64,000 nucleotides of DNA from Bacillota bacterium (lineage in GTDB: Bacteria; Bacillota; DULZ01), in contig JBMNIZ010000013.1 of the NCBI GenBank assembly GCA_050951405.1, positions 101,697-165,696 of the forward strand, in the 5' to 3' direction. The notes beneath the pieces are model-generated. The model searched no databases and had not been told where the DNA came from. It saw nothing but the letters and a program-made list of their open reading frames with translations. This document shows, one piece after another, positions 4,883-44,431 of this stretch (position 1 is its first letter; every line of letters begins with the position of its first letter). A program made the translations under genes and the position numbers.

Positions 4883-4912
4883 GTTTCAATTCCCCATAGG
4901 TAGTCTACAAAC
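4883..4912 (-). CRISPR. Orphan degenerate (terminal) CRISPR repeat
   Basis: GTTTCAATTCCCCATAGGTAGTCTACAAAC, 27/30 identical to the array repeat, same orientation, leader-distal side. Confidence 0.9.
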
Positions 4913-5150
4913 TCTCGAATTGGTCTAATGGATAATCTATGCCCTTCAGCACAAATAACACTTTTTCAACTGTGGGAATTTCCGTTTCTAAGCCTTCTTC
5001 GGTCAAATAATTTGTCGTACCGTTATAAACGAATTTATACCCCTCACGAAAAGGCTTTACTTACCCTAAAACAACTTTCATCCCATTCCCCACCTTCTTG
5101 CATAAAATTCACAAAAAATGGTACCGTATATTCAGAAAGGAGGTTATACT

Positions 5151-5585
5151 ATTAGAAAATTCTCTACTGGACTTGTTGTCGGTTTAATAATAGGATTAAT
5201 GTTTTCTGCTGTTGCTGTGGCTTCGCCTGATATAAAGCTAATTATCAACGGCAAGGAAATTGAAACTGATGTCCCACCGCAGATGATCAACGGGAGAGTG
5301 ATGGTTCCGGCTAGGTTTGTTGCTGAACCTTTGGGAGCTACTGTGGAATGGAAAGATAATACGGTTATTATTACAAAGAAAACGTTAACAGAAAAACCTC
5401 AAAACGATTCCACAAACTGGGTTGCCTTGAGAGAGACAGCAAAAAAACAAGGCTGGACCGTTAATGGCGATGGTTTTGTCTATCAAAACGGGAATAAGCT
5501 GTTTGATTGGAAGGAAGTAGGACAAATCGTTGATGGTATAATTTACATTCCAGCAGATATTCTAAACCGGTTTGTGCTTCCTTAA
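5151..5585 (+). CDS. Secreted protein with copper-amine-oxidase N-terminal (stalk) domain; probable start is ATT at 5151
   Basis: Signal peptide then IKLIINGKEIETDVPPQMINGRVMVPARFVAEPLGATVEW; AGGAGG lies 7 nt before ATT (ORF track uses ATG 5118). Confidence 0.75.
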   Translation: MRKFSTGLVVGLIIGLMFSAVAVASPDIKLIINGKEIETDVPPQMINGRVMVPARFVAEPLGATVEWKDNTVIITKKTLTEKPQNDSTNWVALRETAKKQGWTVNGDGFVYQNGNKLFDWKEVGQIVDGIIYIPADILNRFVLP

Positions 5586-5781
5586 CTCATCGATAAATTT
5601 CATGATTTCGGCACGCTCATATTCTTATGTATGCTAACGTAAAAGTGATCCAAAAATCCACTCAATGATTACGAAAAAGTGATCCACCTGCCAAATCAAA
5701 ATCGCTGTCGTGATAACGAATATTTGATCCATCCCCTAATATTTCCTGTACAATCGGTGTAAGACATCGGTTGGCAGGAGG

Positions 5782-7256
5782 ATGAAAGGCGTGATCATTG
5801 ACGTGGATCTGTACGCTAAAATCAGGCATATGTATGTGCAACAAAAAATGTCTCAAAGAGCTATTGCTAAAGCCCTCGGCATTTCTCGCAACACGGTCAA
5901 AAAGTATTGCAAGGGTGAACATGTTCCTTGGGAAAGACAGCCCTATCATCGGAAATCACCGGTTGTTACAAAGGAAGCGCGTGACTTTATCCGCCAATGC
6001 TTGGACGAAGATGCGGCGGGAAATATCCCTAAACAATGTCATACGGCTAGACGGATTTACCAACGTTTAGTAAAGAAAAAAAACTTCACCGGGGCCGAGT
6101 CCACCATTAGACGGGTAGTCCGGGAAATGAAGCAGCCTATGAAAGAAGCCTTTATGCCCTTGGAATTTGACCCGGGCGAAGCAGCCCAAGTGGATTGGGG
6201 CGAGGCTACCATTTATCTCAAAGGCCAAAAAACAAAGGCCCAACTCTTCTGTTACCGGTTATGCTATAGCGCCGACATCTTCGTGAAAGCCTTCTTTCGC
6301 CAGAACCAGGAATCCTTTCTGGAAGGCCACGTAGCTGCTTTTACCCATGGCAACGGTGTCCCCAAGAAAATTATCTTTGATAATGCTCGCGTTGCCGTCA
6401 AAGAAGGCTTTGGCCTCTATGCCAAACCTCAGGATGCCTACCAGGCCTTAAGCGCCCATTATGCTTTTGAAATGCACTTTACCAACATGAATAGCGGCAA
6501 CGAAAAAGGCCTAGTGGAGAACCTGGTAGGCTGGGTTAGGCGCAATATCCTTGTACCGGTACCTAGAGTAGATAGTATCGAGGAACTGAATGAAACCCTT
6601 ATCTCCGCCTGCCTCCAATACCGGAACCATCAAATTCAAGGCCGTAACCAAACGGTGGGACAACAATTCGAAACAGAGAAACATAGTCTGACACCCCTGC
6701 CCAAATTTGTCTTTGATACCAGCAAGAGTACTACTGTACGGGTAAACGATAACAGCCTCATCCGTTTTGAAGGCAATCAATACTCTGTCCCTGTCCATTT
6801 AGTCGGCAAAACTGTTACCATCAAAGCTTACGGCAACCACCTGGTCTGTTACCATCAAGGAGAAATGGTAGCCACCCATCCACGCTTTTACAGCCGCGGC
6901 GAGACCATATTTGAATTGGCTCACTACCTGCCGCTTCTGGAACAAAAACCCCGCTCCGTTTTTCATGCCAAACCGGTTCGCCGCACCGCGGCCCATGAGC
7001 TTTTGGCTTGGGCCAATTATTTCCCGGCGGGGCCAAAGATACGGTTCAGTTACTAAAACTCAGTGTAGAATATGGCCTCGAACGAGTTCTTGCTGTTAAA
7101 GAGGCATTACCGGCCGGCATCACTCCCACTATTGACTTGGTGCGCCATGAATTAAAACCACATGTTCCGGTCGAATTGGACACCGCCAAAGACATCCTGG
7201 TCAGTACCATTGATTTAGCTGACTATGACCGCAAGTATCTGGCGGTGGCGCCATAA
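5782..7256 (+). pseudogene. istA: IstA transposase, frameshifted near 7015
   Basis: PGEAAQVDWG, IIFDNA, NEKGLVEN motifs; C-terminus continues in another frame (7008..7256). Confidence 0.85.
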
Positions 7257-7611
7257 ATCCCAAGCATGAACTAATTGCACTTTTGCCGCAACTTTAGCAA
7301 CCACCCTAGTGGAGGCAAAAGAAACAAGGGAACTCCTCAAACTGGAACGCCAGCTTCAGAAAGCAGATTTGCTGATTATTGATGAGTTATCATACCTGAG
7401 CTTTAACCGCCATCAGTCTGAGCTGCTCTTTAAAGTCATCTCTGACCGGGCGGAGAAAAGGAGTGTGATCATCAGTACTAACTTGGAATTCTTTCGCTGG
7501 ACGGAGCTATTTGAAAACCCGACCTTGGTTGCAGCATTAGTGGATCGCCTCACTTTTAGGTCCCATATCTTAAACATGAATAACCCGTCCTATCGGATGG
7601 AGCATGGCTAA
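7253..7611 (+). pseudogene. istB: IstB ATPase with internal deletion of about 370 bp
   Basis: LLIIDELSY Walker B present; the segment 38361-38727 of copy 2, including Walker A, is missing. Confidence 0.85.
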
Positions 7612-7763
7612 TTCATCCTAATCATTTCCAACTGGAAGCCCTGACTTAATTGATTAACCCGTTACCAAGTGGATCAATCTTTGGATATCACGGTGGATCA
7701 AAAATTCGTGGTCAGGTGGATCAAATATTCATTGACATTCGGACTTGACAATTCAACGATTCG

Positions 7764-8395
7764 GTTTCAATTCCTCATAGGTAGGCTAAAAACCCTCAAC
7801 GAGCATATGATATGACAGGTTCTGGAAAGTTTCAATTCCTCATAGGTAGGCTAAAAACGATGTCAATCTGCCCCACATCGATTTTATTCCATCCCAGTTT
7901 CAATTCCTCATAGGTAGGCTAAAAACGTTTGCATGATCTATAACCTCCTCAAATTCCGCCTCAGTTTCAATTCCTCATAGGTAGGCTAAAAACTCGACGG
8001 TTGCAGGGGGTTGTCCGTGGAATATGGTCAAGTTTCAATTCCTCATAGGTAGGCTAAAAACCATCTTGTTGCTGAGATTGCTGACGTACAGGAAGAAAGT
8101 TTCAATTCCTCATAGGTAGGCTAAAAACCATCTTGTTGCTGAGATTGCTGACGTACAGGAAGAAAGTTTCAATTCCTCATAGGTAGGCTAAAAACCATCT
8201 TGTTGCTGAGATTGCTGACGTACAGGAAGAAAGTTTCAATTCCTCATAGGTAGGCTAAAAACTGAAAGAATCAAGACAACAATTGCCCAGGTTCGGTGTT
8301 TCAATTCCTCATAGGTAGGCTAAAAACGTGACGCCCGATATGTGGGATATGATTGAGCGGGCGGTGTTTCAATTCCTCATAGGTAGGCTAAAAAC
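7764..8395 (-). CRISPR. CRISPR array segment 1 (10 repeats, leader-distal)
   Basis: Perfect 30-bp repeats with roughly 35-38 bp spacers; one spacer present three times in tandem. Confidence 0.98.
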
Positions 8396-8535
8396 GCATC
8401 TTTGTCCACACTACCCCATTCAACAGTACTTAAAGAATCACTTATTGTAAACTTCTGCATTTATTCACCTCCTTTCAAGGTGATAAAAAGGAGTATAAGA
8501 AAAAGAGCATAAGAAAAAGCGGAATAAATCCGCTT

Positions 8536-10235
8536 CAGACTGTAGACAAAAATGGCCTTTAGGAAGCAAAACCTAAAGGCCAAATTCTTTTTAAACATAA
8601 AATTGCTGAAATATTAGAGAGCACCTCCTGCAGCGGGGAGGTTGTGGGCGGTAATGTCCGTTGTTTCCGCTTCCACATGGCCAGCTTTTTCAGATTCATG
8701 CATGCAAAAAGAAGCGTGAGATAGTGCTGCACTTTTCTCAAGCCTCGAAGCTGCGTGTAGCGCATCCCATGTTTTTCTTTGGCATCGGCAAAAACACGCT
8801 CAATTGTCTCGCCGCGCTTACGATAAAGTTCTTTGCCTCGATCGGTGTACCTAAGATCTTCAGCTATTTCCACATAAGGCTCCCATAAATGACGGGTGAT
8901 AACCTTGGTAAAATTTTTGCTCTGTGTGCACTTCATTCTATGCTCACAGCCGATGCAAATTTTAGGATCACTCTTGTATTCACGGTAACCATCCCGGTTG
9001 GTGGTGGTGTACTTTAAAATCTGGTTATTGGGGCAAATGTAGCAATCGTAGTATTCATCATAAACATAATCACGTTTTCTGAAATAGCCCTTCTTTGTCA
9101 TAGGGCGCTTGTACGGCATGATAGGATCTTTGCCGGCTTCGACTATCTCCCGGCAGATGGCCGGGGTTTTGTATGCAGAATCTGTAACTACAGACTCGAC
9201 TTCGGGGTGCTGTTCAATGACTTGCTGGAAAACATCGGAGAAAACCTGGCTGTCGTGAACATTGCCGGGAGCTGCTTTTAATCCCAAGACAAAATTATTC
9301 ATATCACAGGCAACGGTTACAGTATAGGCAAAGCATTTCTCCTTTTCACTCTTGTAGAACATGCCGCTTTCCGGGTCTGTTGTACTTTCTATGATTTCTC
9401 GTTTTTTGCCGCCGTCAGCCGGGGTGCCTCCTTCATCTCCGGAATCATTGCCTTCGTCTTCATCATCAGCAAACGGTTCCTTGCCATGGGATTTCCTATC
9501 CTCGTTAATTTCATAAAGCAAATCACGTTTGTATTTATGTACACGATGCCTGACCATTTTTTTGATGTACTTCTTCTTATTGGCGCTGGCTTTGACATGA
9601 GTGGCATCAATGAAAATGGCGCTGGTGTTGAGAAACCCGCAGTTAATGGCTTCTTCGAGAACACGCGCAAAAATTTTTTCAAAAATGTCGCTTTCCTGAA
9701 ACCGTCTCACGTAATTCTTGCCAAAGGTAGAGAAGTGAGGGATCTGCTCCTGCAAGCCATATCCCAGAAACCAGCGGTAAGCGACGTTTACTTTTACCTC
9801 TTCTATGGTCTGCCGCATTGAACGGATGCCATAGAGTGCCTGCAGGATCAACAGCTTAATTAGAACAACCGGATCTACACTGGGACGGCCATGGTTTTCT
9901 GAATACAGGTCTTTTACTTCATCATAGATGAAGCTAAAGTCAATACTCTCCTGGACGGCTCTAAGCAGATGGTTTTCCGGAACCAGGCTGTCTATGCAAA
10001 CAATTTCCATTTGGTTAACAGCTTCACGGTCTTTTTTCGCAAGCATTTTATCACCCCGGCTATTGGTTTTTCCCATAATATAATTTCGTTAAAAGGGCTG
10101 AAAATGCCTGCAATTACTGGCTTTTTTACACTTTTGCCAAAGATTTTTTGCGCACGGCAATTATGAATTATAAATGAAAATGCAAACCAAGGATCGGCCA
10201 AGGTTTGCATTTCATAAGACTTTGTCTACAGTCTG
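8536..10235 (-). mobile_element. IS1182-family element, 1700 bp, 19-bp target duplication
   Basis: Terminal IR CAGACTGTAGACAAA / TTTGTCTACAGTCTG; AAGCGGAATAAATCCGCTT duplicated at 8517..8535 and 10236..10254. Confidence 0.92.
8559..10046 (-). CDS. IS1182-family DDE transposase
   Basis: GRPSVDP, IDATHVKA, STTDPES, YRKRGETIERVFADAKEKHG motifs; probable start ATG 10046 (track: 10076). Confidence 0.9.
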   Translation of the reverse strand: MLAKKDREAVNQMEIVCIDSLVPENHLLRAVQESIDFSFIYDEVKDLYSENHGRPSVDPVVLIKLLILQALYGIRSMRQTIEEVKVNVAYRWFLGYGLQEQIPHFSTFGKNYVRRFQESDIFEKIFARVLEEAINCGFLNTSAIFIDATHVKASANKKKYIKKMVRHRVHKYKRDLLYEINEDRKSHGKEPFADDEDEGNDSGDEGGTPADGGKKREIIESTTDPESGMFYKSEKEKCFAYTVTVACDMNNFVLGLKAAPGNVHDSQVFSDVFQQVIEQHPEVESVVTDSAYKTPAICREIVEAGKDPIMPYKRPMTKKGYFRKRDYVYDEYYDCYICPNNQILKYTTTNRDGYREYKSDPKICIGCEHRMKCTQSKNFTKVITRHLWEPYVEIAEDLRYTDRGKELYRKRGETIERVFADAKEKHGMRYTQLRGLRKVQHYLTLLFACMNLKKLAMWKRKQRTLPPTTSPLQEVLSNISAILCLKRIWPLGFAS

Positions 10236-10293
10236 AAGCGGAATAAATCCGCTTTTCTTTTTCTTCATATTTTCCCGGCCATTTGCCTTTTCA

Positions 10294-10470
10294 TTAAACA
10301 GAACGTTTGGGGCATTTCTGGTCATTCATTATGTATTTTAAAGGCTTGCCCCCATATTCAGTACAAGTTATATAATCAATGGCATTCTTACAGTAAGCAC
10401 ACTGGGAAAATTCCATTCTCAAATCTCCTTTTTCCCATCTCCATTTATCTTTCTGTTTAGGTTTTACCAT
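10294..10470 (-). CDS. 58-aa Cys-rich phage-like protein inside the oversized spacer
   Basis: GGAGGGG RBS; MVKPKQKDKWRWEKGDLRMEFSQCAYCKNAIDYITCTEYGGKPLKYIMNDQKCPKRSV*; terminator follows. Confidence 0.65.
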   Translation of the reverse strand: MVKPKQKDKWRWEKGDLRMEFSQCAYCKNAIDYITCTEYGGKPLKYIMNDQKCPKRSV

Positions 10471-10544
10471 CGCAACCCCTCCTTTTTTTACTCCTTTCCT
10501 TTTTTCCATTTATTACTACTACTTACTATATATATTATACTATA

Positions 10545-13500
10545 GTTTCAATTCCTCATAGGTAGGCTAAAAACGTACTCAAAAGAAAAAACGAATTCTA
10601 TGAATCGGTAGTTTCAATTCCTCATAGGTAGGCTAAAAACGTCAAATGCCCGCTGGAGATTATTACTGAAGCAATAGTTTCAATTCCTCATAGGTAGGCT
10701 AAAAACGTCACAACGGCTGGCGACAATATGAATTCTTTTTGCTAGTTTCAATTCCTCATAGGTAGGCTAAAAACAATATTCCCCAAATATCAACTTAGGG
10801 AATGGCTCAAGTTTCAATTCCTCATAGGTAGGCTAAAAACGAGCAGCAACTAATGGTGTTTTTACTGTGAAATACAGTTTCAATTCCTCATAGGTAGGCT
10901 AAAAACCGAATAGACGTGGGTATCGTCCAGGGCAAGGCAACGTAGTTTCAATTCCTCATAGGTAGGCTAAAAACTGACGAATCGCATTTTTAAGGAGAAA
11001 TCCCATGATAGTTTCAATTCCTCATAGGTAGGCTAAAAACTAAATTCTTCTAATTCAACTCCCTTCCTGGTTATTGCAGTTTCAATTCCTCATAGGTAGG
11101 CTAAAAACATCAAACCATTGGAACATTCCGAAATCAGGCACAAGAGTTTCAATTCCTCATAGGTAGGCTAAAAACTTACCAATGGAATACTTGCCATTCA
11201 AGAAATACAGGCGTTTCAATTCCTCATAGGTAGGCTAAAAACAAAAAGCAGATGGTACAAGTTCCGATATTACAAGCGGGTTTCAATTCCTCATAGGTAG
11301 GCTAAAAACATTTCAGTATCATCGCTGTAAAATCCACACTCGATAGTTTCAATTCCTCATAGGTAGGCTAAAAACCTTTTACCTGTTGGTCCAGCGCCAG
11401 CCACTGCTCTCCAAGTTTCAATTCCTCATAGGTAGGCTAAAAACTGAATTGACCGGCTTTGATATGGACGAGATAGAGGACTGTGTTTCAATTCCTCATA
11501 GGTAGGCTAAAAACAAGACTGGACATAGAACACAGCGGTGAAATCAGCATGTGTTTCAATTCCTCATAGGTAGGCTAAAAACTATAATAAATGGCATAGT
11601 AGAAGCCATACCCAAAAGTTTCAATTCCTCATAGGTAGGCTAAAAACTAACCAAAGCGGCTATATTTTGGCAAAGGTATGCAAGTTTCAATTCCTCATAG
11701 GTAGGCTAAAAACGGAAACGTCAACAATGCAATAAAAGAGAAGCTTCAGGTTTCAATTCCTCATAGGTAGGCTAAAAACCTACGAGAGCCGAAACGATTG
11801 CAACAATGACACATAGTTTCAATTCCTCATAGGTAGGCTAAAAACCCAGGTCTCTTAACACTCCTAGAATTATTTCAATACTAAGTTTCAATTCCTCATA
11901 GGTAGGCTAAAAACCGTACCCCATCCATTTGCTTATGGTTGGTTTCACTAGTTTCAATTCCTCATAGGTAGGCTAAAAACTCGGGGATAGGGTTGTTGTC
12001 CTCATCCACGTTAGAGTTTCAATTCCTCATAGGTAGGCTAAAAACAGAAGTCTTGGGCCACATCCACTGTCGGCAATATAAAGTTTCAATTCCTCATAGG
12101 TAGGCTAAAAACGTTATCGCATCCCTCGTCAGAAGTTCCGAGTATGGCCAGTTTCAATTCCTCATAGGTAGGCTAAAAACGTTAACCGGCCGACTTACTG
12201 CCCCGAATGTATTAAGTTTCAATTCCTCATAGGTAGGCTAAAAACACTCGTCAACGATTTCTCCGCACTCCGGACAACGTGGTTTCAATTCCTCATAGGT
12301 AGGCTAAAAACTGTAGGAATTTTGTGCAGTGGGGAAAAAGGACCATAGTTTCAATTCCTCATAGGTAGGCTAAAAACACTTACGAAAGCCGGATTGCTCA
12401 TTCCGATTTTAAGGGGTTTCAATTCCTCATAGGTAGGCTAAAAACTATCCCGAATCCCTTGTTGTATTTCCAGGAGGGTTGTTTCAATTCCTCATAGGTA
12501 GGCTAAAAACTCGGGGATAGGGTTGTTGTCCTCATCCACGTTAGAGTTTCAATTCCTCATAGGTAGGCTAAAAACACCTCGTCTGAAGTGTATGGGAAAG
12601 CTGGGAAAATCGTGTTTCAATTCCTCATAGGTAGGCTAAAAACTCTAACTGCATAAAAGTGCTCGATAAATCAATCCAATGTTTCAATTCCTCATAGGTA
12701 GGCTAAAAACTGTCACCGATGACCTCGCAATATCCCGGCAAACTGTGTTTCAATTCCTCATAGGTAGGCTAAAAACCAATTCACTTCGGCGGAGACCGCC
12801 CAAGATAGCCGTGTTTCAATTCCTCATAGGTAGGCTAAAAACTGGGAAAGCGAGGGTGAGGAAGGATGACACTACAGGAAAGTTTCAATTCCTCATAGGT
12901 AGGCTAAAAACCCTTCTCCTTCTCCTTCACCTTCACCTTCTATGAATGGTTTCAATTCCTCATAGGTAGGCTAAAAACAAGAACCGCTCTTCCGCTTCCT
13001 CACCGCATATGTCAGTTTCAATTCCTCATAGGTAGGCTAAAAACGCATTTTGGAACAAGGAGAAAAGTGATGTATTTTTGCGTTGTTTCAATTCCTCATA
13101 GGTAGGCTAAAAACGGCCACCTTGAGCTTCGGATATTTGGAAAGCGAAAACGAGTTTCAATTCCTCATAGGTAGGCTAAAAACGAGTGGCAAAGGTTAGA
13201 TGTGATCGTAACCCATAAAAGTTTCAATTCCTCATAGGTAGGCTAAAAACTTGGATTGGTGGGAGAAAGAAGCCGGTATTACACCGTTTCAATTCCTCAT
13301 AGGTAGGCTAAAAACGCTGTCTACATTGAAGCCAAGACCTTCGCTCAAAATAAGTTTCAATTCCTCATAGGTAGGCTAAAAACCATTTATTTCGGCTTTG
13401 ATGTCGTCAGCCCGGGCTTGTTTCAATTCCTCATAGGTAGGCTAAAAACGAGACAACCTGAAAAAATACCGAAAAGAAAAGGACTGTTTCAATTCCTCAT

Positions 13501-16500
13501 AGGTAGGCTAAAAACTACGTTCACCCTATACTGCTTTGCGTCTCTAGCCAGTTTCAATTCCTCATAGGTAGGCTAAAAACTCCTTCAAAACGCCCTGATA
13601 TTTAAGAATACCCCTGTTTCAATTCCTCATAGGTAGGCTAAAAACATCGGTTATCCCAGCAACAGCCATTACTTCTTCGGCGTTTCAATTCCTCATAGGT
13701 AGGCTAAAAACGGGAAGATGAAAGGCACGTTATCATAGCTAACAGGGAGTTTCAATTCCTCATAGGTAGGCTAAAAACGAAGGAAGCGGAGGGAAGTTCC
13801 TAGCGGCGTTTCCTCCAGTTTCAATTCCTCATAGGTAGGCTAAAAACGAGCAAATTGCATACATGGAGTTATTGGCGCGACGCAGTTTCAATTCCTCATA
13901 GGTAGGCTAAAAACAAAACCGTTTGCGACATATACAATGGACGGGTCATGTTTCAATTCCTCATAGGTAGGCTAAAAACCCAGAAGAGCCGGGTATGCTC
14001 TTTGCCAAGTCTGATGTTTCAATTCCTCATAGGTAGGCTAAAAACAAAATTTAGTCATTCAAAAATTGGGCCAATTGTGGATGTTTCAATTCCTCATAGG
14101 TAGGCTAAAAACGCTTCACTGCGTTCAGGGTACTGAGCACGGCATAACAGTTTCAATTCCTCATAGGTAGGCTAAAAACAGAAATCTAAATCCTGGTTGT
14201 AACGCACCCTGGCAAGTTTCAATTCCTCATAGGTAGGCTAAAAACATATACTAAAAAATCCCGCATCTGCAAACAAAGACAGATGTTTCAATTCCTCATA
14301 GGTAGGCTAAAAACCATATGGGAGCAATCCTCAATGGTACAAAGAGGGGGAGTTTCAATTCCTCATAGGTAGGCTAAAAACGCTGTAATAGAATATTCAC
14401 ATTTGTCAATTGTATCGTGTTTCAATTCCTCATAGGTAGGCTAAAAACCGGGAGCAGTTGCCGCCACATCTGGCAGGCCGCAGGTTTCAATTCCTCATAG
14501 GTAGGCTAAAAACGCCAGATCAGGTGCCAGAAGCGAAGTCTCTGCCGGAAAGTTTCAATTCCTCATAGGTAGGCTAAAAACGGGATGTGGAATTTCAAAA
14601 TTCTTTGTTCCACTTACAGGTTTCAATTCCTCATAGGTAGGCTAAAAACAAACAAAAGAGATTGTGAGAATATGGAGATTGGAGGAAGTTTCAATTCCTC
14701 ATAGGTAGGCTAAAAACACATGAGCGATAGTGAAGACACGCTCCGGCGCAGAAAGTTTCAATTCCTCATAGGTAGGCTAAAAACGGCAAGTGAATTGTAT
14801 CCGTATACCGAAGAAGACCTGTGTTTCAATTCCTCATAGGTAGGCTAAAAACTTGAAACGCACCATCCTTTTCTGATTTCTCAGTCCGGGTTTCAATTCC
14901 TCATAGGTAGGCTAAAAACCACATTTCATGCAAATACCCCCGTCGCGCTCGTAAAGTTTCAATTCCTCATAGGTAGGCTAAAAACCCCGCTTAACCTGGG
15001 CGAGGGCTGTAACGGAAGGAAGTTTCAATTCCTCATAGGTAGGCTAAAAACAGGAGCAGCAATGGAAAAAGCAAGTCCAAGCTGCCATGTTTCAATTCCT
15101 CATAGGTAGGCTAAAAACACTGTAACCTGCACACCTTCCGAGGTCTCTTTTGCCGGTTTCAATTCCTCATAGGTAGGCTAAAAACTTGAGATGGAGGAAA
15201 CAAAGTCGCAGGAGTACTTTTAGTTTCAATTCCTCATAGGTAGGCTAAAAACAAATGGAACAACGCATATCTGATTTGGAAATGGCTAGTTTCAATTCCT
15301 CATAGGTAGGCTAAAAACAGTGTCAGTGGGCAAAGTGGCGGGATCGGCTAGCTTGGGTTTCAATTCCTCATAGGTAGGCTAAAAACTAGTAGCCTCTGTG
15401 GTCGTTATAACAGGGTCGGGCAAAGGTTTCAATTCCTCATAGGTAGGCTAAAAACTATGTTTTTGATCGTGAATTGAACTTTCTAGGCATCGTTTCAATT
15501 CCTCATAGGTAGGCTAAAAACCCAACACTTCAAGGCCTTTTTGTTCTAGCATAGGTAAGGTTTCAATTCCTCATAGGTAGGCTAAAAACCTTACCATTCA
15601 CACTATCTACATTCCCACCCTTAGCGTGTTTCAATTCCTCATAGGTAGGCTAAAAACACAAGAGACCGGTGCTGCAGACATGTACGAGGGATAGCAGTTT
15701 CAATTCCTCATAGGTAGGCTAAAAACCCCGGCAACTCCATATAAAACTTAATTACGTTTGCAAGTTTCAATTCCTCATAGGTAGGCTAAAAACCGGCGGA
15801 GGCTGAGGAGGAGTTCAAAATGAGAAAGGTGTTTCAATTCCTCATAGGTAGGCTAAAAACTTGGGAAATGAAGGCGGTTACCGTCTGGGGCCGTTAGAGT
15901 TTCAATTCCTCATAGGTAGGCTAAAAACGCTCCATATCCCGCAATGCATTACCGCCCAATGCAAGTTTCAATTCCTCATAGGTAGGCTAAAAACCACCAG
16001 CAAGCCCAGGAACGGGTACATTGACCCAGCTGAGTTTCAATTCCTCATAGGTAGGCTAAAAACAGAAGCCTGGCTACTGCCGATGGTTGCTGCGAATACG
16101 TGTTTCAATTCCTCATAGGTAGGCTAAAAACAGAAAACCACTTGACTTTTTACTGATGGGGATATATAAGTTTCAATTCCTCATAGGTAGGCTAAAAACC
16201 AGAAACAGTGTTGAGACTTGGTTCCGTTTTAAAGGTTACGTTTCAATTCCTCATAGGTAGGCTAAAAACCCCCGGCAATCTCCCCTTTTTCGATAATCCA
16301 TTCTAGTTTCAATTCCTCATAGGTAGGCTAAAAACATTGATAGCGGAACTGGAGCGGCGCGGATATAAGTAGTTTCAATTCCTCATAGGTAGGCTAAAAA
16401 CTGAAGACGCTAGACACTTTGTAAAAACATTATTAAAGATGTTTCAATTCCTCATAGGTAGGCTAAAAACGACTACTGAGAGTAGAGTAATCAATGAACA

Positions 16501-19500
16501 AGGCGAAGGTTTCAATTCCTCATAGGTAGGCTAAAAACGCGACACAGAGGAAAATTCCAATCCTTCCGAAAGCCAGTTTCAATTCCTCATAGGTAGGCTA
16601 AAAACTGACTTTTCCACCCATCTCGGTTGGACAATCCGATGAAGTTTCAATTCCTCATAGGTAGGCTAAAAACCTTATAGAAGAAGGTTTGCTCTCAGAC
16701 TTCGTATTATGTTTCAATTCCTCATAGGTAGGCTAAAAACTGCCAGGAGGCGGTCCTTGTGTTGCTGGGATTGGTGTTTCAATTCCTCATAGGTAGGCTA
16801 AAAACATCTGCTGCGACACGCTGCGCAGCTCTTTTACTTTTGCGTTTCAATTCCTCATAGGTAGGCTAAAAACATTTACTTGAGAGGCTTTTTCCTCATA
16901 GCTTAATGTGGTTTCAATTCCTCATAGGTAGGCTAAAAACTCCGGCACAGCCAAGAAGTGGCTGAAAGGTGGTGAAGTTTCAATTCCTCATAGGTAGGCT
17001 AAAAACAGGCAACGAAGTGAGAGACGTTCTTGGCATGAGCCCGTGTTTCAATTCCTCATAGGTAGGCTAAAAACTTTTAAACCTTTTAGCGCTTCATTTA
17101 GCAAATCCTGTTTCAATTCCTCATAGGTAGGCTAAAAACCCGTAACCTGCACACCTTCCGAGGTCTCTTTTGCGGGTTTCAATTCCTCATAGGTAGGCTA
17201 AAAACGTCATGGTGTCAAGGGTTTTTTTTATTTCAATTTTGTGTTTCAATTCCTCATAGGTAGGCTAAAAACATCTGCAAACAAAGACAGACTCAAAGCG
17301 GCGGAAAGTTTCAATTCCTCATAGGTAGGCTAAAAACGGCGATGGTAGCCGATGGCATGAGATATATAACAAGTTTCAATTCCTCATAGGTAGGCTAAAA
17401 ACTGGGAAAGCGAGGGTGAGGAAGGATGACACTACAGGAAAGTTTCAATTCCTCATAGGTAGGCTAAAAACTCCAGTTATAGCGTCGGTCGCTTGCCCTG
17501 AATTCGTGTTTCAATTCCTCATAGGTAGGCTAAAAACTTTGTGCATGTAAATCATTCAATAATTGTTCTACGGGTTTCAATTCCTCATAGGTAGGCTAAA
17601 AACAAGGAAAATATACTCATGCGCCTTTGTGCATCTATCTTGTTTCAATTCCTCATAGGTAGGCTAAAAACTTAAGCCGTACAAAGCGGGCTACCTTGTT
17701 TGTGCAAGTTTCAATTCCTCATAGGTAGGCTAAAAACTTCATCTGAAGTGTATGGGAAAGCTGGGAAAATCGTGTTTCAATTCCTCATAGGTAGGCTAAA
17801 AACCGTTAATCCCGGCAAAAACTAATTAAAAGGAGGAATAGTTTCAATTCCTCATAGGTAGGCTAAAAACGGCCAAGTTCGCCTGAATATCATCATATGC
17901 CTGGCAGAGTTTCAATTCCTCATAGGTAGGCTAAAAACACACAAACCACATTAAAGGAGGTTATATAAATGAAGTTTCAATTCCTCATAGGTAGGCTAAA
18001 AACGTGGTGCAAAACCGAAATGCTCTGCAAGGGTGTTGAGTTTCAATTCCTCATAGGTAGGCTAAAAACACTATGCGAAAAAATGGCGTACCGCTGATGA
18101 AAGCGAAGTTTCAATTCCTCATAGGTAGGCTAAAAACAAGAAAAAGCTTTGGGGCTGAAATCTCGACTAAAAAGTTTCAATTCCTCATAGGTAGGCTAAA
18201 AACGGGAATTAACAGACATTCTTTGCGATGGCCGGGTGTGTTTCAATTCCTCATAGGTAGGCTAAAAACACGAAATTGTTGATGGAGAAATCAAGATATT
18301 GAGCCATGTTTCAATTCCTCATAGGTAGGCTAAAAACGGATATCTGCTTACTAAAGATTATGCCTTGAAATGTGAGTTTCAATTCCTCATAGGTAGGCTA
18401 AAAACAGTGGACGCTATGACGCAGGCACTAATGAGATTGAAGTTTCAATTCCTCATAGGTAGGCTAAAAACGTTCTACCGTAAAGCACCGGACAAATTCG
18501 ATGAGAGTTTCAATTCCTCATAGGTAGGCTAAAAACCCTTCGCACTTTCAACGGTTTATGTAATTAAGATTGTTTCAATTCCTCATAGGTAGGCTAAAAA
18601 CCCATGATCATCGGCCCGGGGCCAATGGGTTCTGTGCGCGTTTCAATTCCTCATAGGTAGGCTAAAAACTTAGGTGGTGTTTATTATGACTGTAGGTGAA
18701 TTAAGTTTCAATTCCTCATAGGTAGGCTAAAAACATTTGTACCTCCGACCACTTGAATATCAATACTCCGGTTTCAATTCCTCATAGGTAGGCTAAAAAC
18801 CAACAAGGTTATCCACGGCGCCCTGGAACAGGCAAGTTTCAATTCCTCATAGGTAGGCTAAAAACGATTTATGTCGACTTCTATTTCTGAAAAATTATGG
18901 TCTGTTTCAATTCCTCATAGGTAGGCTAAAAACGTGGACCTGGAAGAAGGCGTTATCTACATTCGCAAGTTTCAATTCCTCATAGGTAGGCTAAAAACCT
19001 GTTTTAAAAATCACATATATTCTCATCATCTATACAGTTTCAATTCCTCATAGGTAGGCTAAAAACACAGCTTGAATAGTGGCCGGGAAATCCATTCTAT
19101 CTCGTTTCAATTCCTCATAGGTAGGCTAAAAACGCTGAAACTACTCAAAAATCCAAGCTGGCGCAGGTGTGTTTTCAATTCCTCATAGGTAGGCTAAAAA
19201 CATCGCGAGGCAGGGGCGGGGCCTGGTGTGAAATTGGAGTTTCAATTCCTCATAGGTAGGCTAAAAACCTGCAGTATTTCTTCCCGCTGCAAGTCATTCT
19301 CCAGTTTCAATTCCTCATAGGTAGGCTAAAAACGATTCATGCTAAGTTGTTTTAATTTTTCACCGCAATTGTTTCAATTCCTCATAGGTAGGCTAAAAAC
19401 CAGCCGGCCGGCCAGGTCATCCTCATGCCAACGGGTCAGTTTCAATTCCTCATAGGTAGGCTAAAAACCGGAGCGCCGAGCTCGGGCAGCCCTGACATGG

Positions 19501-22500
19501 GCAAGTTTCAATTCCTCATAGGTAGGCTAAAAACGGTAGACACAGGGGAGGATGGAGTGCCTACACTGAGTTTCAATTCCTCATAGGTAGGCTAAAAACG
19601 GCCAATGGGTTCAAATGCCTGTCCCTCTCATGCAATAGTTTCAATTCCTCATAGGTAGGCTAAAAACTCTGCCGTATGCATCCCCATGGCCAGCTCCGGC
19701 GCAGTTTCAATTCCTCATAGGTAGGCTAAAAACGGTGGTGCAAAACCGAAATGCTCTGCAAGGGTGTTGAGTTTCAATTCCTCATAGGTAGGCTAAAAAC
19801 GCTTTCCTCTTCCAAACATGCCGCCAAAAGTAGCAAAGTTTCAATTCCTCATAGGTAGGCTAAAAACACGGCGTTCGATGCTGGGCATTGTGGGCCTCCT
19901 TTCTGTTTCAATTCCTCATAGGTAGGCTAAAAACGATTCCTGAGCCAAAGAACGCTCCTTGGGTAGCTAAAAAGTTTCAATTCCTCATAGGTAGGCTAAA
20001 AACGCTGGGAGGATGCGAAGCCGCTTGAACCGATGCCAATGTTTCAATTCCTCATAGGTAGGCTAAAAACGAGGAAATATTTTTAGGAGGAGTTGAAAGC
20101 AGGTGAAGTTTCAATTCCTCATAGGTAGGCTAAAAACGTAGCTGAAAGGTTGGGGTGGTATTGATAAAGTATAGCAGTTTCAATTCCTCATAGGTAGGCT
20201 AAAAACTGACAGTGCTCACGAAATGATCGCCGCAATAGAATTGTGTTTCAATTCCTCATAGGTAGGCTAAAAACAGGGGTATGCGCAATACGTTCAAGTA
20301 ATAGAAACCGCGTTTCAATTCCTCATAGGTAGGCTAAAAACCCAACAGGACAGAGAGCAGTACAGGCAATATAACCAGTTTCAATTCCTCATAGGTAGGC
20401 TAAAAACATTACGAGCATCCATACCCTGCCTACCGATGACGACGGTTTCAATTCCTCATAGGTAGGCTAAAAACTGTATGGCGTTACCGCTAAAAGAATA
20501 TTTGCAGTTAAAAGTTTCAATTCCTCATAGGTAGGCTAAAAACTGCCGTCCATCATTTCATATAAAACTTCTTCGCCTAGTTTCAATTCCTCATAGGTAG
20601 GCTAAAAACAAGCATCCGGGGATTATAACAACACAAGGCCGTCAGGTTTCAATTCCTCATAGGTAGGCTAAAAACGATAAATGTCAAATTTCTTGACTAT
20701 TATTGATGTCAAGTTTCAATTCCTCATAGGTAGGCTAAAAACGTTTCAATGGCACAATTATGGCACAGCAGAAACCAGTTTCAATTCCTCATAGGTAGGC
20801 TAAAAACCCCTGATTACTGTCTCAGTGAAAGTCAACGTCACTGTAGTTTCAATTCCTCATAGGTAGGCTAAAAACTTGGAAAGATTGGCTTCCTTCTATT
20901 GCGATTTGCCGTGTTTCAATTCCTCATAGGTAGGCTAGAAACCACAAGCGGAGCTATTCATGAAGAGTTACAATGCTCGTTTCAATTCCTCATAGGTAGG
21001 CTAAAAACCGTAGAATTGAAAACCATATCGGAAATACTGGGGCAGTTTCAATTCCTCATAGGTAGGCTAAAAACGCAAATCATCCAAGTATTACTACGAC
21101 GCCGAGGCTATGTTTCAATTCCTCATAGGTAGGCTAAAAACGTGAGCAGGGTTATTCTATTGTTTGGATTGAACTGAGTTTCAATTCCTCATAGGTAGGC
21201 TAAAAACGAAATCTAAATCCTGGTTGTAGCGCACCCTGGCGAGTTTCAATTCCTCATAGGTAGGCTAAAAACCGAGGAAATCATGCCGGGAAGGGAGGTT
21301 GCCTGATGAAGTTTCAATTCCTCATAGGTAGGCTAAAAACCAGTCTTCAGGCCGGTTAGGCTTAAAAGGCTGGCAGGGTTTCAATTCCTCATAGGTAGGC
21401 TAAAAACGCAGCCAAGAGAGGGGAATATATTTTACCTAGCTGAGTTTCAATTCCTCATAGGTAGGCTAAAAACACGATAGCCGGGGCAGCTCCAAATGTA
21501 ACTTTGAATTTGTTTCAATTCCTCATAGGTAGGCTAAAAACACCCTGGCCGACGCCTTTATGTGGCTGCTATTTGAGTTTCAATTCCTCATAGGTAGGCT
21601 AAAAACACGCGCAGGGTTGTGGTTTCTTTGTTACCGCCGTCACCGATGTTTCAATTCCTCATAGGTAGGCTAAAAACGAACAGCACCGACAAAGGCTTCT
21701 TGAAGCCAAGAAAAAGTTTCAATTCCTCATAGGTAGGCTAAAAACCTAAACTGGTGTTGCCCGCTGTCGGCTGGTTCGAGGAGTTTCAATTCCTCATAGG
21801 TAGGCTAAAAACCGCCCAAAGCCAAGCCTATCAAGCAGACACTTTCCGGTTTCAATTCCTCATAGGTAGGCTAAAAACTAAAAGACCCATTCGGCATCGC
21901 CACAGGCTTTGGACGGTTTCAATTCCTCATAGGTAGGCTAAAAACCGTGACCTGATTCAGGTACTTTGATTGCGCCGGATTCGAGTTTCAATTCCTCATA
22001 GGTAGGCTAAAAACATATTCACTATTTGTGGCATAGAAACACTATCCTCGTTTCAATTCCTCATAGGTAGGCTAAAAACGTACGTTGTTACTTACAACAA
22101 TGAGCACTTAGATGAGTTTCAATTCCTCATAGGTAGGCTAAAAACTATAAATCAGAAGGTTTCCGGCATATTGAAAAGAAAGGTTTCAATTCCTCATAGG
22201 TAGGCTAAAAACCAGGAGCAGGTCAACGAACAGTTCCGCAAAGGCGAAAGTTTCAATTCCTCATAGGTAGGCTAAAAACGTTAGGCAGGAGAAAATCATA
22301 TCAACTATTTCCGGGAGTTTCAATTCCTCATAGGTAGGCTAAAAACATAGAGAAGTCCAGTCTCCGCTAGTCCCGGCACGAGTTTCAATTCCTCATAGGT
22401 AGGCTAAAAACGACTGGTATCGCCAGGTGGCATAGTCAACTACAAACAGTTTCAATTCCTCATAGGTAGGCTAAAAACTTTGCGCTGCTCAATTTTTTTG

Positions 22501-25500: not shown

Positions 25501-26321
25501 CTCATAGGTAGGCTAAAAACGCGGTACTCCTTACCGACGCGGTGCCGGTGGAAGCCGTGTTTCAATTCCTCATAGGTAGGCTAAAAACAAAAATGAAGTT
25601 CTCTAAAGCTATTGTAGCGCTGGGTTTCAATTCCTCATAGGTAGGCTAAAAACACGTATCTTGCTGTGGCGGGTGGCATTCCCATGTTCTAGTTTCAATT
25701 CCTCATAGGTAGGCTAAAAACGTGTCGTGCTGGGCTGGCTGGGCCATGCACGGACCGTGTTTCAATTCCTCATAGGTAGGCTAAAAACCTGAGCTATGAG
25801 GATGTCTACGGTCAGTCCCAAACGTTTCAATTCCTCATAGGTAGGCTAAAAACCCGTTGGATGAGGTGGCCTACCATGCCGGGAACAAAGTTTCAATTCC
25901 TCATAGGTAGGCTAAAAACCAAACAGATGGAAGAACTTGTCGGACATACAGTCTTGTTTCAATTCCTCATAGGTAGGCTAAAAACGCTTACTGGGAGAAA
26001 TACGACCAGGAGCAAGAGCGGAGTTTCAATTCCTCATAGGTAGGCTAAAAACCAAAAGAGATTGTGAGAATATGGAGATTGGAGGGAGTTTCAATTCCTC
26101 ATAGGTAGGCTAAAAACGACATAGCTTGTTGGTATATGCCTTGCCGGACTCTTGTTTCAATTCCTCATAGGTAGGCTAAAAACACCCTAACGACACCGAT
26201 GCAGTAAACCTTTATGAGCGAGGTTTCAATTCCTCATAGGTAGGCTAAAAACGGTTGATGAGGAGCTTCAAATTGACTTTTGTCTCAAGGTGTTTCAATT
26301 CCTCATAGGTAGGCTAAAAAC
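10545..26321 (-). CRISPR. CRISPR array segment 2 (about 238 repeats, estimated)
   Basis: Continuous units of about 66 bp; crRNA-sense repeat GTTTTTAGCCTACCTATGAGGAATTGAAAC ends in the ATTGAAAC handle typical of I-B. Confidence 0.99.
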
Positions 26322-26466
26322 TGACTTCTACTGTTAATGGCCATGATAAAATCGACATAAATGGTCACGAAAAACCCGCAAAACCGGTCATTTAGAAAAG
26401 GAAAAAAGCTCGTTCCCTACAACATTTTCATTGGAACCAAAACATTAAAGAAGGGAACGAGCAAAA

Positions 26467-27948: not shown

Positions 27949-28733
27949 TTAGACAAATACCAACCGCCGATCGGAAAACCCTGGAACAGAATTTAAAAAG
28001 GTTAAGACTTCCCCATATTAGAAACATCCTTGACGATGTTAATGAATTGGCGCTGGAAGAAGAACCATCCTACCTGGATTTCTTAGCCTATGTTATTAAC
28101 AAGGAGGTGGAACATAGAGACAAGACCCAACAAGAAAAAAGAATGAAAAGAGCCTGCTTTCCCCAGATAAAGACTTTGGAAGAATTTGATTTTAGTTTCC
28201 AAAACAGCATCACCCAACAAAGCATCTATGATCTGGCAACCCTTCAATTTATCGAAGCCAAGGAGAACATCATCTTTCTGGGTCCACCGGGAGTAGGCAA
28301 GAGCCACCTGGCCATTGCCCTGGGAGTTAAGGCAGTGCTAAAAGGTTACCAAGTCCGTTTTTACACACTCACGGACCTCATTGCCGAGCTTTATGCAGCT
28401 TTAGCCGATAACAGCCTGAACAGAAAGATTAACAATATCTTAAAAAATGACCTTATCATTCTGGACGAACTGGGCTATGTGTCCATGGATGAAACCGCAT
28501 CAGACCATATTTTCCAGCTGGTCACCAAAGCTTACGAAAACCGTTCTTTGATCATTACCAGCAACCTGGATTTTGGAGAATGGGGCACTCTTTTTGTGAA
28601 CATGAGTACTGCTGCAGCTATCTTAGATCGCTTACTACACCATGCCCATGTGTTTAACCTTAGGGGGAACAGTTATCGGGTAAGAAACCGATTAATACAA
28701 CCAACAAATAAGATAGCGGCAACTACAGGCTAA
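27945..28733 (+). CDS. istB: IstB AAA+ ATPase
   Basis: GPPGVGKS Walker A, LIILDELGY Walker B, DRLLHH. Confidence 0.95.
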   Translation: MIRQIPTADRKTLEQNLKRLRLPHIRNILDDVNELALEEEPSYLDFLAYVINKEVEHRDKTQQEKRMKRACFPQIKTLEEFDFSFQNSITQQSIYDLATLQFIEAKENIIFLGPPGVGKSHLAIALGVKAVLKGYQVRFYTLTDLIAELYAALADNSLNRKINNILKNDLIILDELGYVSMDETASDHIFQLVTKAYENRSLIITSNLDFGEWGTLFVNMSTAAAILDRLLHHAHVFNLRGNSYRVRNRLIQPTNKIAATTG

Positions 28734-28755
28734 ATAAACCGGATTAAGCGAGTGC

Positions 28756-28805
28756 GAATTGCCTAGGAGGCGTTCCGCTACGCTCCACTGCCTCCTAGGC
28801 AATTC
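28756..28805. terminator. Strong hairpin after istB
   Basis: gaattgcctaggaggc...gcctcctaggcaattc, 16-bp perfect stem. Confidence 0.6.
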
Positions 28806-28948
28806 CTCTACCGTTATCGCAAGGATTAAATTCTGTATGACTGCTGGTTTTTCATGGCCAAAATTGCTGGTTTTTTAGTGACCAAAAATGCGGTTTTTCA
28901 AATGGCCATTGACATCTACCGGCTCTATAATGAATTGCGGGAGAAATA

Positions 28949-33031: not shown

Positions 33032-33046
33032 CGCAAATCCCTCTTG

Positions 33047-34048: not shown

Positions 34049-34057
34049 CCTTCTTTC

Positions 34058-35465: not shown

Positions 35466-35485
35466 TATCCATCCACCCCCTAAAC

Positions 35486-43651: not shown

Positions 43652-43654
43652 ATT

Positions 43655-44419: not shown

Positions 44420-44431
44420 ACACGATGCCTC

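What the first reader, a model, noticed from the sequence alone, without database searches (positions are those of the whole stretch)
8396..10544. 430-bp giant spacer carrying a whole gene inside the CRISPR array
Seen: removing IS1182 and one target copy leaves 140+290 = 430 bp between two perfect repeats, about 12 times the normal spacer length, with no inverted ends of its own that I could see. In crRNA sense it reads TATAAT, GGAGGGG RBS, a complete 58-aa Cys-rich ORF, an intrinsic terminator, a GGAGGTG RBS and a second gene (MQKFTISDSLSTVEWGSVDKD) cut off by the repeat. Inference: a contiguous piece of a mobile element, possibly a phage head module, was integrated like a spacer. Cas6 processing would release it as a translatable mRNA, so the array may capture and express genes such as a toxin-immunity or exclusion factor.
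Basis: partly seen in the sequence, partly recalled or inferred. Interest (0 to 1): 0.85.

Follow-up and report, generated by a model that had tools for sequence, protein, structure and literature searches.

The report
Phage gene fragment in CRISPR spacer slot
A 430-base piece of a phage head-gene region, twelve times normal spacer length, sits exactly where one spacer should be in a very long CRISPR array and was later split by a jumping gene, showing that arrays can take up gene-sized viral DNA with spacer-precise borders.

Summary
A type I-B array of 303 repeats (4883-32577, crRNA sense = minus strand) has a 2149-bp gap at 8396-10544. An IS1182-family element (8536-10235) with a 19-bp target duplication fills most of it. 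Removing these leaves 430 bp between two perfect repeats.

The 430 bp are unique in the genome. They have no terminal inverted repeats. They run collinear with the head module of a phage family found in digester viromes. From nt 1 they carry the -10 box of a conserved phage promoter (the -35 is cut off), an intact 58-aa four-Cys gene, a terminator, and the first 21 codons of a phrog_3219 gene.

Three normal spacers of the same array hit this phage family on the same strand, with PAM TTA. A TTA lies exactly 35 nt from the fragment's 3' end, so that end looks like a normal spacer boundary.

Best reading (about 0.45): two neighbouring spacers recombined with phage DNA, which replaced the repeat between them. 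Main rival (about 0.3): Cas1-Cas2-Cas4 integrated an oversized prespacer.

Contigs from independent metagenomes support the junctions.

The parts
4883..32577 (-). Type I-B CRISPR array, 303 repeats. crRNA sense is the minus strand, the leader is at 32578-32767, and the degenerate last repeat is at 4883.
   Evidence: cas operon orientation
10545..10574 (-). Perfect repeat on the leader side (5' in crRNA sense) of the giant spacer
10255..10544 (-). Giant spacer nt 1-290: phage -10 box, RBS, 58-aa gene and the upstream half of the terminator region
10534..10539 (-). TATAAT, the -10 box of a promoter conserved in the related phages (TTGATA-17-TATAAT there). The -35 is absent here and a CRISPR repeat takes its place.
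   Evidence: no full promoter found
10509..10544 (-). Candidate former spacer S1 (first ~36 nt of the fragment). This is an inference, not shown.
   Evidence: inference from the model; phage collinearity from nt 1
10294..10470 (-). Intact 58-aa gene with four invariant Cys (C24, C27, C36, C53), a small phage protein of unknown function
10236..10254 (.). Target-site duplication copy (terminator hairpin), right of the IS
8536..10235 (-). IS1182-family insertion sequence (transposase 10076..8559), a later insertion into the terminator hairpin of the fragment
8517..8535 (.). Target-site duplication copy (terminator hairpin followed by a T-tract in crRNA sense), left of the IS
8396..8535 (-). Giant spacer nt 291-430: terminator, RBS and the first 21 codons of a phrog_3219-type head-module gene (ATG at 8460), cut by the repeat
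8431..8433 (-). TTA (crRNA sense), the PAM of this system, lying exactly 35 nt from the 3' end of the fragment
8396..8430 (-). Candidate former spacer or adaptation footprint S2 (last 35 nt)
   Evidence: inference
8366..8395 (-). Perfect repeat on the trailer side of the giant spacer
11714..11749 (-). Normal spacer matching the same phage family (100% to L022; PAM TTA)
11846..11884 (-). Normal spacer matching the same phage family (about 90-92% identity; PAM TTA)
21607..21647 (-). Normal spacer matching the same phage family (100% to L049; TTA with a 1-nt slip)
32768..49020 (-). Type I-B cas operon: cas6, cas8b, cas7, cas5, cas3, then IS21-type insertions, then cas4, cas1b, cas2

Best explanation
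What it is (shown): a 430-bp collinear fragment of a tailed-phage head module occupies exactly one spacer slot of a type I-B CRISPR array. It lies ten repeats from the last perfect repeat (7764) at the trailer end. An IS1182-family element later inserted into the phage terminator hairpin inside it.

How it got there (inferred): the array once held two neighbouring normal spacers, S1 and S2, taken from the same strand of this phage about 360 bp apart. Primed adaptation tends to produce such pairs. During a later infection, phage DNA recombined with the array through the ~35-nt S1 and S2 homologies, by double crossover or gene conversion, possibly helped by a phage single-strand annealing recombinase. 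The repeat(s) between S1 and S2 were replaced by the intervening phage sequence. This leaves both junctions exactly at repeat borders and leaves the PAM of S2 inside the fragment, 35 nt from its 3' end.

Consequences (inferred): the long transcript unit may still give an S1-type guide next to the 5' handle. S2 is lost as a guide. The internal terminator would be polar on the ten distal repeats. The captured 58-aa gene is a passenger, not a recruited function.
For: - Both junctions coincide with the borders of two 0-mismatch repeats. For a random insertion into a ~67-bp unit this is of the order of 1 in several thousand (inference).
- Phage collinearity runs from nt 1 to about nt 425 of 430. 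The first 14 nt are identical to L052, L014 and L031. Two coding blocks are 69-75% identical to many loci in the same order.
- The system's PAM is TTA 5' of the protospacer in crRNA sense, seen in 2 of 3 matched spacers directly and in the third with a 1-nt slip.
- A TTA lies exactly 35 nt from the fragment's 3' end. 35 nt is a common spacer length here (56 of 299 gaps). The chance expectation is about 0.10 for offsets 35-38 and 0.17-0.20 for offsets 34-41.
- The lineage repeatedly acquired spacers from this phage family. 3 of 299 spacers hit the loci above the best shuffled control. All three are on the same strand as the fragment. Two of them lie two units apart in the array and hit one contig 2.1 kb apart.
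- Recombination between spacers and their phage targets is documented (Varble et al. 2019). I saw this only as cited in passages of PMC8616872 and PMC10608574.
- The array shows other recombination footprints, such as a spacer in three tandem copies two units away and six other duplicated spacers.
Against: - No ancestral array with S1-repeat-S2 was seen.
- The 5' PAM could not be tested, and the three relatives sharing the first 14 nt have CCA, not TTA, upstream.
- The in-register TTA has a 10-20% chance expectation and is equally predicted by a two-footprint integrase model.
- Homology arms of ~35 nt are short for RecA-type recombination (recalled knowledge).
- No other spacer of the array matches the fragment itself (best is 15 nt).
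- This is a single case.
Confidence: 0.45

Rival explanations
1. Oversized prespacer integrated by the adaptation machinery. Cas1-Cas2(-Cas4) inserted the 430-bp fragment at the then leader-proximal repeat in one full-site reaction and duplicated the repeat. In a specific variant, two integrase complexes sat on two PAM-registered footprints of one phage DNA fragment. Exonucleases trimmed only the outer flanks, and the two outer 3' ends attacked the two repeat borders.
For: - Junctions are exact at both repeat borders, which is the hallmark of integrase chemistry.
- The locus has intact-looking cas4, cas1b and cas2 next to the leader.
- The two-footprint variant also predicts the TTA 35 nt from the 3' end.
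- It needs no pre-existing pair of spacers.
Against: - All 299 other spacers are 34-41 nt, so the ruler is otherwise strict.
- As far as I recall, no integration of hundreds of bp by a CRISPR Cas1-Cas2 has been described. Full-text searches for 'giant spacer', 'oversized spacer' and 'unusually long spacer' with CRISPR gave nothing relevant.
- The 5' PAM is unverified.
Confidence: 0.3
2. Other recombination route. Either repeat-mediated exchange with a phage- or plasmid-borne mini-array or solitary repeat unit that already flanked this phage segment, or an illegitimate insertion into or replacement of a spacer.
For: - Virus-borne mini-arrays exist (PMC7099407, title and abstract seen in the listing).
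- The array is recombination-prone, with duplicated spacers and three IS-type interruptions.
Against: - No repeat-like sequence (up to 6 mismatches) in any of the 56 fetched loci.
- None (up to 3 mismatches) in 4 of 4 searched viral records, which are only 54-60% complete. A fifth record, L013, was not held.
- A repeat inside the phage would have to cut a head gene at codon 21 and a promoter between -35 and -10.
- Illegitimate insertion does not explain two exact borders.
- No leftover of an old spacer is visible, because phage homology reaches nt 1 and about nt 425.
Confidence: 0.1
3. Assembly artefact: a chimeric join of phage reads into the array of a metagenome-assembled genome.
For: - The genome looks like a MAG: 16 contigs, 91% complete, 2.8% contamination.
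- One contig of run X4 matches only 10210-10483 and then runs on unlike the window for 173 nt.
Against: - Contigs with 0 differences from runs of different studies cover 10210-10568 (X1, 360 nt) and 10250-10570 (X2, 321 nt).
- These link the IS end, the duplication, the right half of the fragment and 24-26 nt of the repeat. That is less than the 31 nt the tool asks for a formal bridge.
- X3 covers 10250-10424, and X4 has depth over the left half.
- One of these runs may be the source sample.
- An IS with a proper 19-nt duplication inside the fragment is hard to get from a chimera.
Confidence: 0.04
4. One reading: the array captured the gene for use. Cas6 cuts the pre-crRNA at the flanking repeats and releases a translatable mRNA for the 58-aa protein, for example an exclusion or immunity factor.
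For: - The 58-aa ORF is intact with a GGAGG-type RBS and four invariant Cys shared with 52 other family members.
- cas6 is present.
- The ORF runs in crRNA sense.
Against: - The phage promoter lost its -35, and no complete promoter is found.
- The site is about 22 kb and about 330 repeats from the leader.
- An IS21 in opposite orientation lies in between.
- The neighbouring gene is truncated, and an IS landed in the fragment.
- In phages the gene sits in the head module, and there is no hint of a toxin, immunity or exclusion role.
- No family or fold match.
- Intactness needs no selection if the event is recent.
Confidence: 0.05

Closest known systems
Canonical type I-B spacer acquisition (Cas1b-Cas2-Cas4, 5' PAM)
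   Same: - Foreign (phage) DNA sits between two intact repeats with exact borders.
- It has the same strand and the same phage family as normal spacers.
- The last 35 nt are in register with a TTA PAM.
   Different: - Its length is 430 nt against 34-41 nt for the 299 other spacers.
- It carries a whole gene, a terminator and half a promoter.
- The PAM at its 5' end is unverified.
Spacer-protospacer homologous recombination between phages and CRISPR loci (Varble et al. 2019, Nat Microbiol). Seen only through citing passages in PMC8616872 and PMC10608574. The paper itself is not held.
   Same: Short spacer homology is used as a crossover site between phage DNA and the array.
   Different: As cited, that work describes crossovers that create phage-CRISPR hybrids and transduction of CRISPR loci. 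Here two crossovers would leave a phage segment fixed inside the host array. This outcome was not found in my literature searches.
Insertion sequences or MITEs interrupting CRISPR arrays
   Same: The array is interrupted by non-spacer DNA. This same array has an IS21 at 26322-28948 and the IS1182 inside the fragment.
   Different: - The 430 bp have no terminal inverted repeats, no target duplication of their own and no other copy in the genome.
- They are phage head-module DNA.
Virus-borne mini-CRISPR arrays and solitary repeat units
   Same: Viral DNA directly abuts a host-type CRISPR repeat.
   Different: - No repeat was found in the related phage sequences that were sampled.
- Here the context is a 303-repeat host array next to cas genes.
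Casposons (Cas1-family casposase inserting kb-sized DNA with target duplication). Recalled knowledge.
   Same: If the integrase rival is right, a Cas1-family enzyme inserted gene-sized DNA and duplicated its target, the repeat.
   Different: - Casposons have terminal inverted repeats and carry their own casposase. Neither is present here.
- The Cas1 here is a standard Cas1b.
CreTA-type modules, small genes embedded between repeat-like sequences in type I-B loci. Recalled knowledge.
   Same: A non-guide genetic element is flanked by CRISPR repeats in a type I-B locus.
   Different: CreT and CreA are small RNAs with degenerate repeats that guard cas genes. Here the content is a protein-coding phage fragment between perfect repeats deep in the array, with no evidence of function.

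Membership tests
CRISPR spacer of this type I-B array | Flanked on both sides by intact repeats of the array | tested here: met
   Repeats 8366-8395 and 10545-10574 have 0 mismatches.
CRISPR spacer of this type I-B array | Length within the system's ruler (34-41 nt here) | tested here: not met
   430 nt after removing the IS and one duplication copy. The 299 other gaps are 34-41 nt.
CRISPR spacer of this type I-B array | Protospacer preceded by the PAM (TTA) in the source element | tested here: inconclusive
   The source phage is absent from all collections (best 65% aa identity). Relatives that share nt 1-14 have CCA upstream. An internal TTA lies 35 nt from the 3' end.
CRISPR spacer of this type I-B array | Derived from a mobile element that the array also targets | tested here: met
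   Collinear with phage head modules. 3 of 299 normal spacers hit the same loci.
Insertion sequence or MITE (for the 430 bp themselves) | Terminal inverted repeats, own target duplication, several copies | tested here: not met
   2 of 15 terminal nt are complementary and there are no end direct repeats. The flanks are unique in the genome.
IS1182 family (the 1700-bp insert) | IS1182-type DDE transposase, terminal inverted repeats, target duplication | tested here: met
   NF033551 scores 447.8 bits against a cut-off of 270. There are 15-nt perfect inverted ends and a 19-nt duplication. 8 of 8 full copies lie in duplicated hairpins.
Tailed-phage head module | Gene order terminase, portal, head morphogenesis, (small gene), (phrog_3219), decoration, capsid in relatives | tested here: met
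   PHROG and Pfam hits on L052 and L038 neighbours. 21 loci come from IMG/VR.
Rho-independent terminator (inside the fragment) | G+C-rich hairpin followed by a T-tract | tested here: met
   8-pair stem, 5-nt loop and T-tract on both strands. Energy is -11.3 kcal/mol, z = -4.2.
Complete sigma-70 promoter at the 5' end of the fragment | -35 and -10 hexamers 16-18 nt apart | tested here: not met
   Only the -10 is retained. The phage -35 (TTGATA) lies outside the fragment. The scan lists no site there.
Type I-B CRISPR-Cas | cas8b, cas7, cas5, cas3, cas6 and cas4-cas1b-cas2 next to the array | tested here: met
   Cas1b TIGR03641 scores 475.5 bits against a cut-off of 304. Pfam Cas_TM1802 on the cas8b candidate is above its gathering score, at 192.5 against 25.1. 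The NCBIfam I-B models for Cas8b, Cas7 and Cas5b are the best hits but fall below their curated cut-offs. Cas6, Cas4 and Cas2 are also found.

The most novel reading that the evidence does not exclude
The CRISPR adaptation integrase itself (Cas1b-Cas2 with Cas4) inserted a 430-bp, gene-carrying phage fragment whose two ends were set by two separate PAM-registered footprints. If so, natural CRISPR integrases can occasionally write gene-sized DNA into arrays with spacer-exact junctions, in a casposon-like manner. The captured phage gene could then be carried on the pre-crRNA.
Probability: 0.25. Interest if true: 0.8.

Novelty: new variant of a known kind. Interest (0 to 1): 0.55.

Why it matters
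- Spacer length is treated as a hard property of each CRISPR system. A 12-fold oversized, gene-bearing spacer with exact junctions and an in-register internal PAM shows a second way for phage DNA to enter an array.
- If it arose by recombination at two spacers, arrays are landing pads for phage-to-host gene flow. They would also be liable to lose guides and gain terminators through their own immune memory.
- If it arose by integration, the Cas1-Cas2 ruler can fail in a structured way. That would bear on the casposon-to-CRISPR origin story and on using integrases as DNA writers.
- On the practical side, array finders would split this locus into two arrays and miss the event. Spacer-based host-virus linking gains a 430-bp link to an uncultured digester phage family.

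Tried and rejected
- Source phage. No DNA match in the phage collection for the right half of the fragment or for 22 kb of the array. The exact 58-aa protein occurs only on this contig in the large protein collection. The best relatives are 65% identical in protein and about 70% in DNA. The only genome-contig hit is weak, 35% over 34 residues.
- Relatives. In 40 related genomes, 10 have a match. All listed matches outside G000 fall in the repeat-spacer part of the query (289-530), none in the fragment. 61 matches were not listed.
- Other arrays in the genome with oversized spacers. There are none, and only this one array exists.
- Function of the 58-aa protein. No Pfam or PHROG family for it or for 53 family members. 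The first AlphaFold model was useless (pLDDT 48). A second model from a deeper alignment was confident (pLDDT 87). It had no match in the PDB by Foldseek (best E = 8.9) or by VIA-align against 48,161 chains (none at Z >= 2).
- Expression. RNA runs X15-X20 hold 0.19-0.31 of the sampled words of a query that is two-thirds IS.
- Parts of the stretch without contig cover in X1-X3 (8401-8484) prove nothing. Repeat-to-repeat 'joints' are uninformative because all repeats are identical.
- Second giant spacer. I considered whether the 2851-nt gap at 4913-7763 is one. It is about 715 bp of unique DNA with a Cu_amine_oxidN1-domain gene, plus a deleted IS21 copy and 17 bp. It lies between a degenerate repeat and the last perfect repeat. 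No TTA lies in register at its 3' end by my reading. I left it as ordinary trailer flank with a relic repeat.
- Literature. Searches found no description of gene-sized spacers. 'Giant spacer' and 'oversized spacer' had 0 occurrences among the listed papers, and 'unusually long spacer' gave only irrelevant papers. Supplementary files were not consulted.
Full report
**The locus**

The window holds one very long CRISPR array. The 30-nt repeat occurs 303 times on the + strand from 4883 to 32577. 298 copies are perfect, four carry 1-2 mismatches, and the last copy at 4883 carries 3.

It is the only array in the 2.38-Mb, 16-contig genome. That genome is 91% complete with 2.8% contamination, so it is probably a MAG.

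Directly beyond 32577, on the minus strand, lie cas2, cas1b, cas4, IS21-type insertions, then cas3, cas5, cas7, cas8b and cas6. Cas1b scores above NCBIfam's type I-B cut-off. So the system is type I-B, the leader is at 32578-32767, and crRNA sense is the minus strand.

299 gaps between repeats are 34-41 nt. Three are large:
- 2851 nt at 4913-7763;
- 2149 nt at 8396-10544, which is the finding;
- 2627 nt at 26322-28948, an IS21 with istA and istB on the + strand.

**Check of the observation**

Both repeats flanking 8396-10544 are perfect. The gap holds a 1700-bp element at 8536-10235. It has 15-nt perfect inverted ends and an IS1182-family transposase (Pfam DUF772 plus DDE_Tnp_1_6; NF033551 at 447.8 bits against a cut-off of 270).

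About ten copies or fragments of this element occur in the genome at 88-100% identity. In 8 of 8 full-length copies examined, the element sits in a hairpin terminator whose whole stem-loop is duplicated on both sides. Here the duplication is 19 nt, at 8517-8535 and 10236-10254.

Its features are:
- It is unique in the genome.
- It is 34% G+C against 44% for the window.
- It has no terminal inverted or direct repeats.

In crRNA sense it reads TATAAT at nt 6-11, a GGAGG-type RBS, and a 58-aa ORF at window 10470..10294. Then come a hairpin with a T-tract, a second RBS, and an ORF start cut by the repeat after 21 codons.

**What the 430 bp are**

The 58-aa protein matches no Pfam or PHROG family. 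In the 5.8-billion-cluster protein collection it has only itself and two relatives at 65% identity.

Pattern scans found relatives in 34 metagenome loci and 21 IMG/VR viral loci, and only one weak hit among species-representative genomes.

In 30 of 55 loci, a gene whose N-terminus matches the truncated second ORF follows within 1.5 kb on the same strand. Of the other 25, about ten end too soon to tell (under about 900 nt of DNA left downstream). The rest have room but a different downstream start.

That downstream gene (448-513 aa) is phrog_3219, of unknown function. The neighbourhood is terminase, portal, head morphogenesis, then the small gene, phrog_3219, head decoration and capsid.

At DNA level the fragment aligns in two blocks, nt 96-213 and 337-425, at 69-75% identity and in the same order.

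An alignment of the upstream regions shows a conserved sigma-70 promoter in the phages (TTGATA, 17 nt, TATAAT). The fragment starts 5 nt before the -10 box. Its first 14 nt are identical to three loci. So the piece is phage DNA from its first nucleotide to within about 5 nt of its last. It cuts a promoter between -35 and -10 at one end and a head gene at codon 21 at the other. No old spacer halves are left at its ends.

A profile search of 1.84 billion representatives shows that the small protein belongs to a family of 66 clusters of 50-80-aa proteins. Four Cys are invariant in all 53 aligned members. A confident model (pLDDT 87) has no PDB match.

**Link to the array's normal immunity**

Of 299 normal spacers, 3 match the fetched phage loci above the best shuffled control. 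They are the spacers at 11714-11749 (100% identity), 11846-11884 (about 90%) and 21607-21647 (100%).

All three match the same strand as the fragment. The first two lie two units apart in the array and hit the same contigs 2.1 kb apart. The protospacers are preceded by TTA, the third with a 1-nt slip.

So this lineage met this phage family repeatedly, and the fragment is oriented like its normal spacers.

**The clue at the 3' end**

Inside the fragment, a TTA lies at nt 393-395 (window 8433-8431). That is exactly 35 nt from the 3' junction, and 35 nt is a common spacer length here (56 of 299).

Sliding the end point along the fragment gives an in-register TTA in about 10% of positions for lengths 35-38 and about 20% for lengths 34-41. 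This is suggestive, not proof. It says the 3' end may be a normal adaptation boundary measured from an internal PAM.

The 5' PAM cannot be tested because the source phage is not in any collection. The three relatives sharing the first 14 nt have CCA there.

**Mechanism**

Exact junctions at both repeat borders exclude a random insertion for practical purposes (inference). Two models fit.

- *Model A.* Two neighbouring same-strand spacers, S1 and S2, recombined with phage DNA. The phage sequence between the protospacers replaced the repeat(s) between the spacers. Spacer-target recombination is documented (Varble et al. 2019), but I saw it only through citing passages because the paper is not held. 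Recombination on ~35-nt arms is what phage annealing recombinases do well (recalled knowledge). The array shows clustering of same-phage, same-strand spacers.
- *Model B.* The integrase inserted an oversized prespacer, possibly one held by two complexes on two PAM-registered footprints. This also predicts the internal TTA.

I put A at about 0.45 and B at about 0.30.

A route through a phage-borne repeat is disfavoured. No repeat-like sequence occurs in the 56 loci or in 4 of 4 searched viral records, which are 54-60% complete. A fifth record was not held.

**Is it real?**

Contigs of four bioreactor metagenome runs from four studies were laid on 8233-10744.
- X1 has a 360-nt contig covering 10210-10568 with no difference.
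- X2 has a 321-nt contig covering 10250-10570 with no difference.
- X3 covers 10250-10424.
- X4 has depth over the left half.

These contigs join the IS end, the duplication, the right half of the fragment and 24-26 nt of the repeat. That is short of the 31 nt the tool asks for a formal bridge. One run may also be the source sample.

One X4 contig follows the window only to 10483 and then differs for 173 nt. I could not resolve this.

The IS with a proper duplication inside the fragment also argues against a chimera. I rate an artefact at about 0.04.

**Function**

Nothing supports expression or use of the captured gene.
- The promoter is halved, and the scan finds no site there.
- The fragment lies about 22 kb from the leader, behind an oppositely oriented IS21.
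- It carries its own terminator and now an IS.
- No RNA data were laid on it.

The likely consequences are inferences only. It may give a possible S1-type guide from the first ~36 nt. It loses S2 as a guide. It is polar on the ten distal repeats.

**Comparison and novelty**

The fragment behaves like a spacer in position, orientation and origin but fails the length criterion. It is not an IS or a MITE.

I found no description of gene-sized spacers in five full-text searches. Supplements were not seen.

I file it as a new variant of a known kind: an array-phage recombination or adaptation product. It is a single natural case with a testable mechanistic clue.

Noticed in passing
window 8536-10235 and genome copies (C12, C14, C15, C8, C4, C16, C5): The IS1182-family element inserts into rho-independent terminator hairpins. 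It duplicates the whole stem-loop (roughly 17-21 nt) in 8 of 8 full copies examined. This is a strikingly specific target choice.
   Followed up: partly
window 8062-8232: One 37-nt spacer is present in three tandem copies, two units from the giant spacer. Six other spacers occur twice at distant places in the array, for example 11981/12511, 12843/17403 and 24000/25256.
   Followed up: no
window 4883-7793: A degenerate repeat (3 mismatches) at 4883 is separated from the last perfect repeat (7764) by 2851 nt. That span is about 715 bp of unique DNA with a 155-aa Cu_amine_oxidN1-domain gene (5118-5585, + strand), an IS21 copy with an internal istB deletion (about 5628-7746), and 17 bp. It could be trailer flank with a relic repeat or a second oversized insert.
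   Followed up: partly
window 26322-28948 and 34711-40802: An intact-looking IS21 (istA 493 aa, istB 262 aa, + strand) sits inside the array. Further IS21-type genes separate cas3 from cas4-cas1-cas2. The adaptation and interference modules are thus split.
   Followed up: no
L004:1326-2093 and L005 (metagenome loci): Some phage relatives carry three tandem, diverged copies of the small four-Cys gene.
   Followed up: no
L052:3897-5678: The phage head-morphogenesis protein upstream of the small gene has a C-terminal ADP-ribosyltransferase exoenzyme domain (PF03496, E = 2.6e-20).
   Followed up: no
window 10210-10483 in run X4: A 447-nt metagenome contig matches the window only over 10210-10483. 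Its remaining 173 nt do not lie on the stretch. This may be a strain variant of the fragment's 5' end or a graph artefact in a T-rich stretch.
   Followed up: no
L001-L052, about 60-100 nt upstream of the small gene: A conserved sigma-70-type promoter (TTGATA, 17 nt, TATAAT) lies inside the phage head module, directly upstream of the small four-Cys gene.
   Followed up: partly
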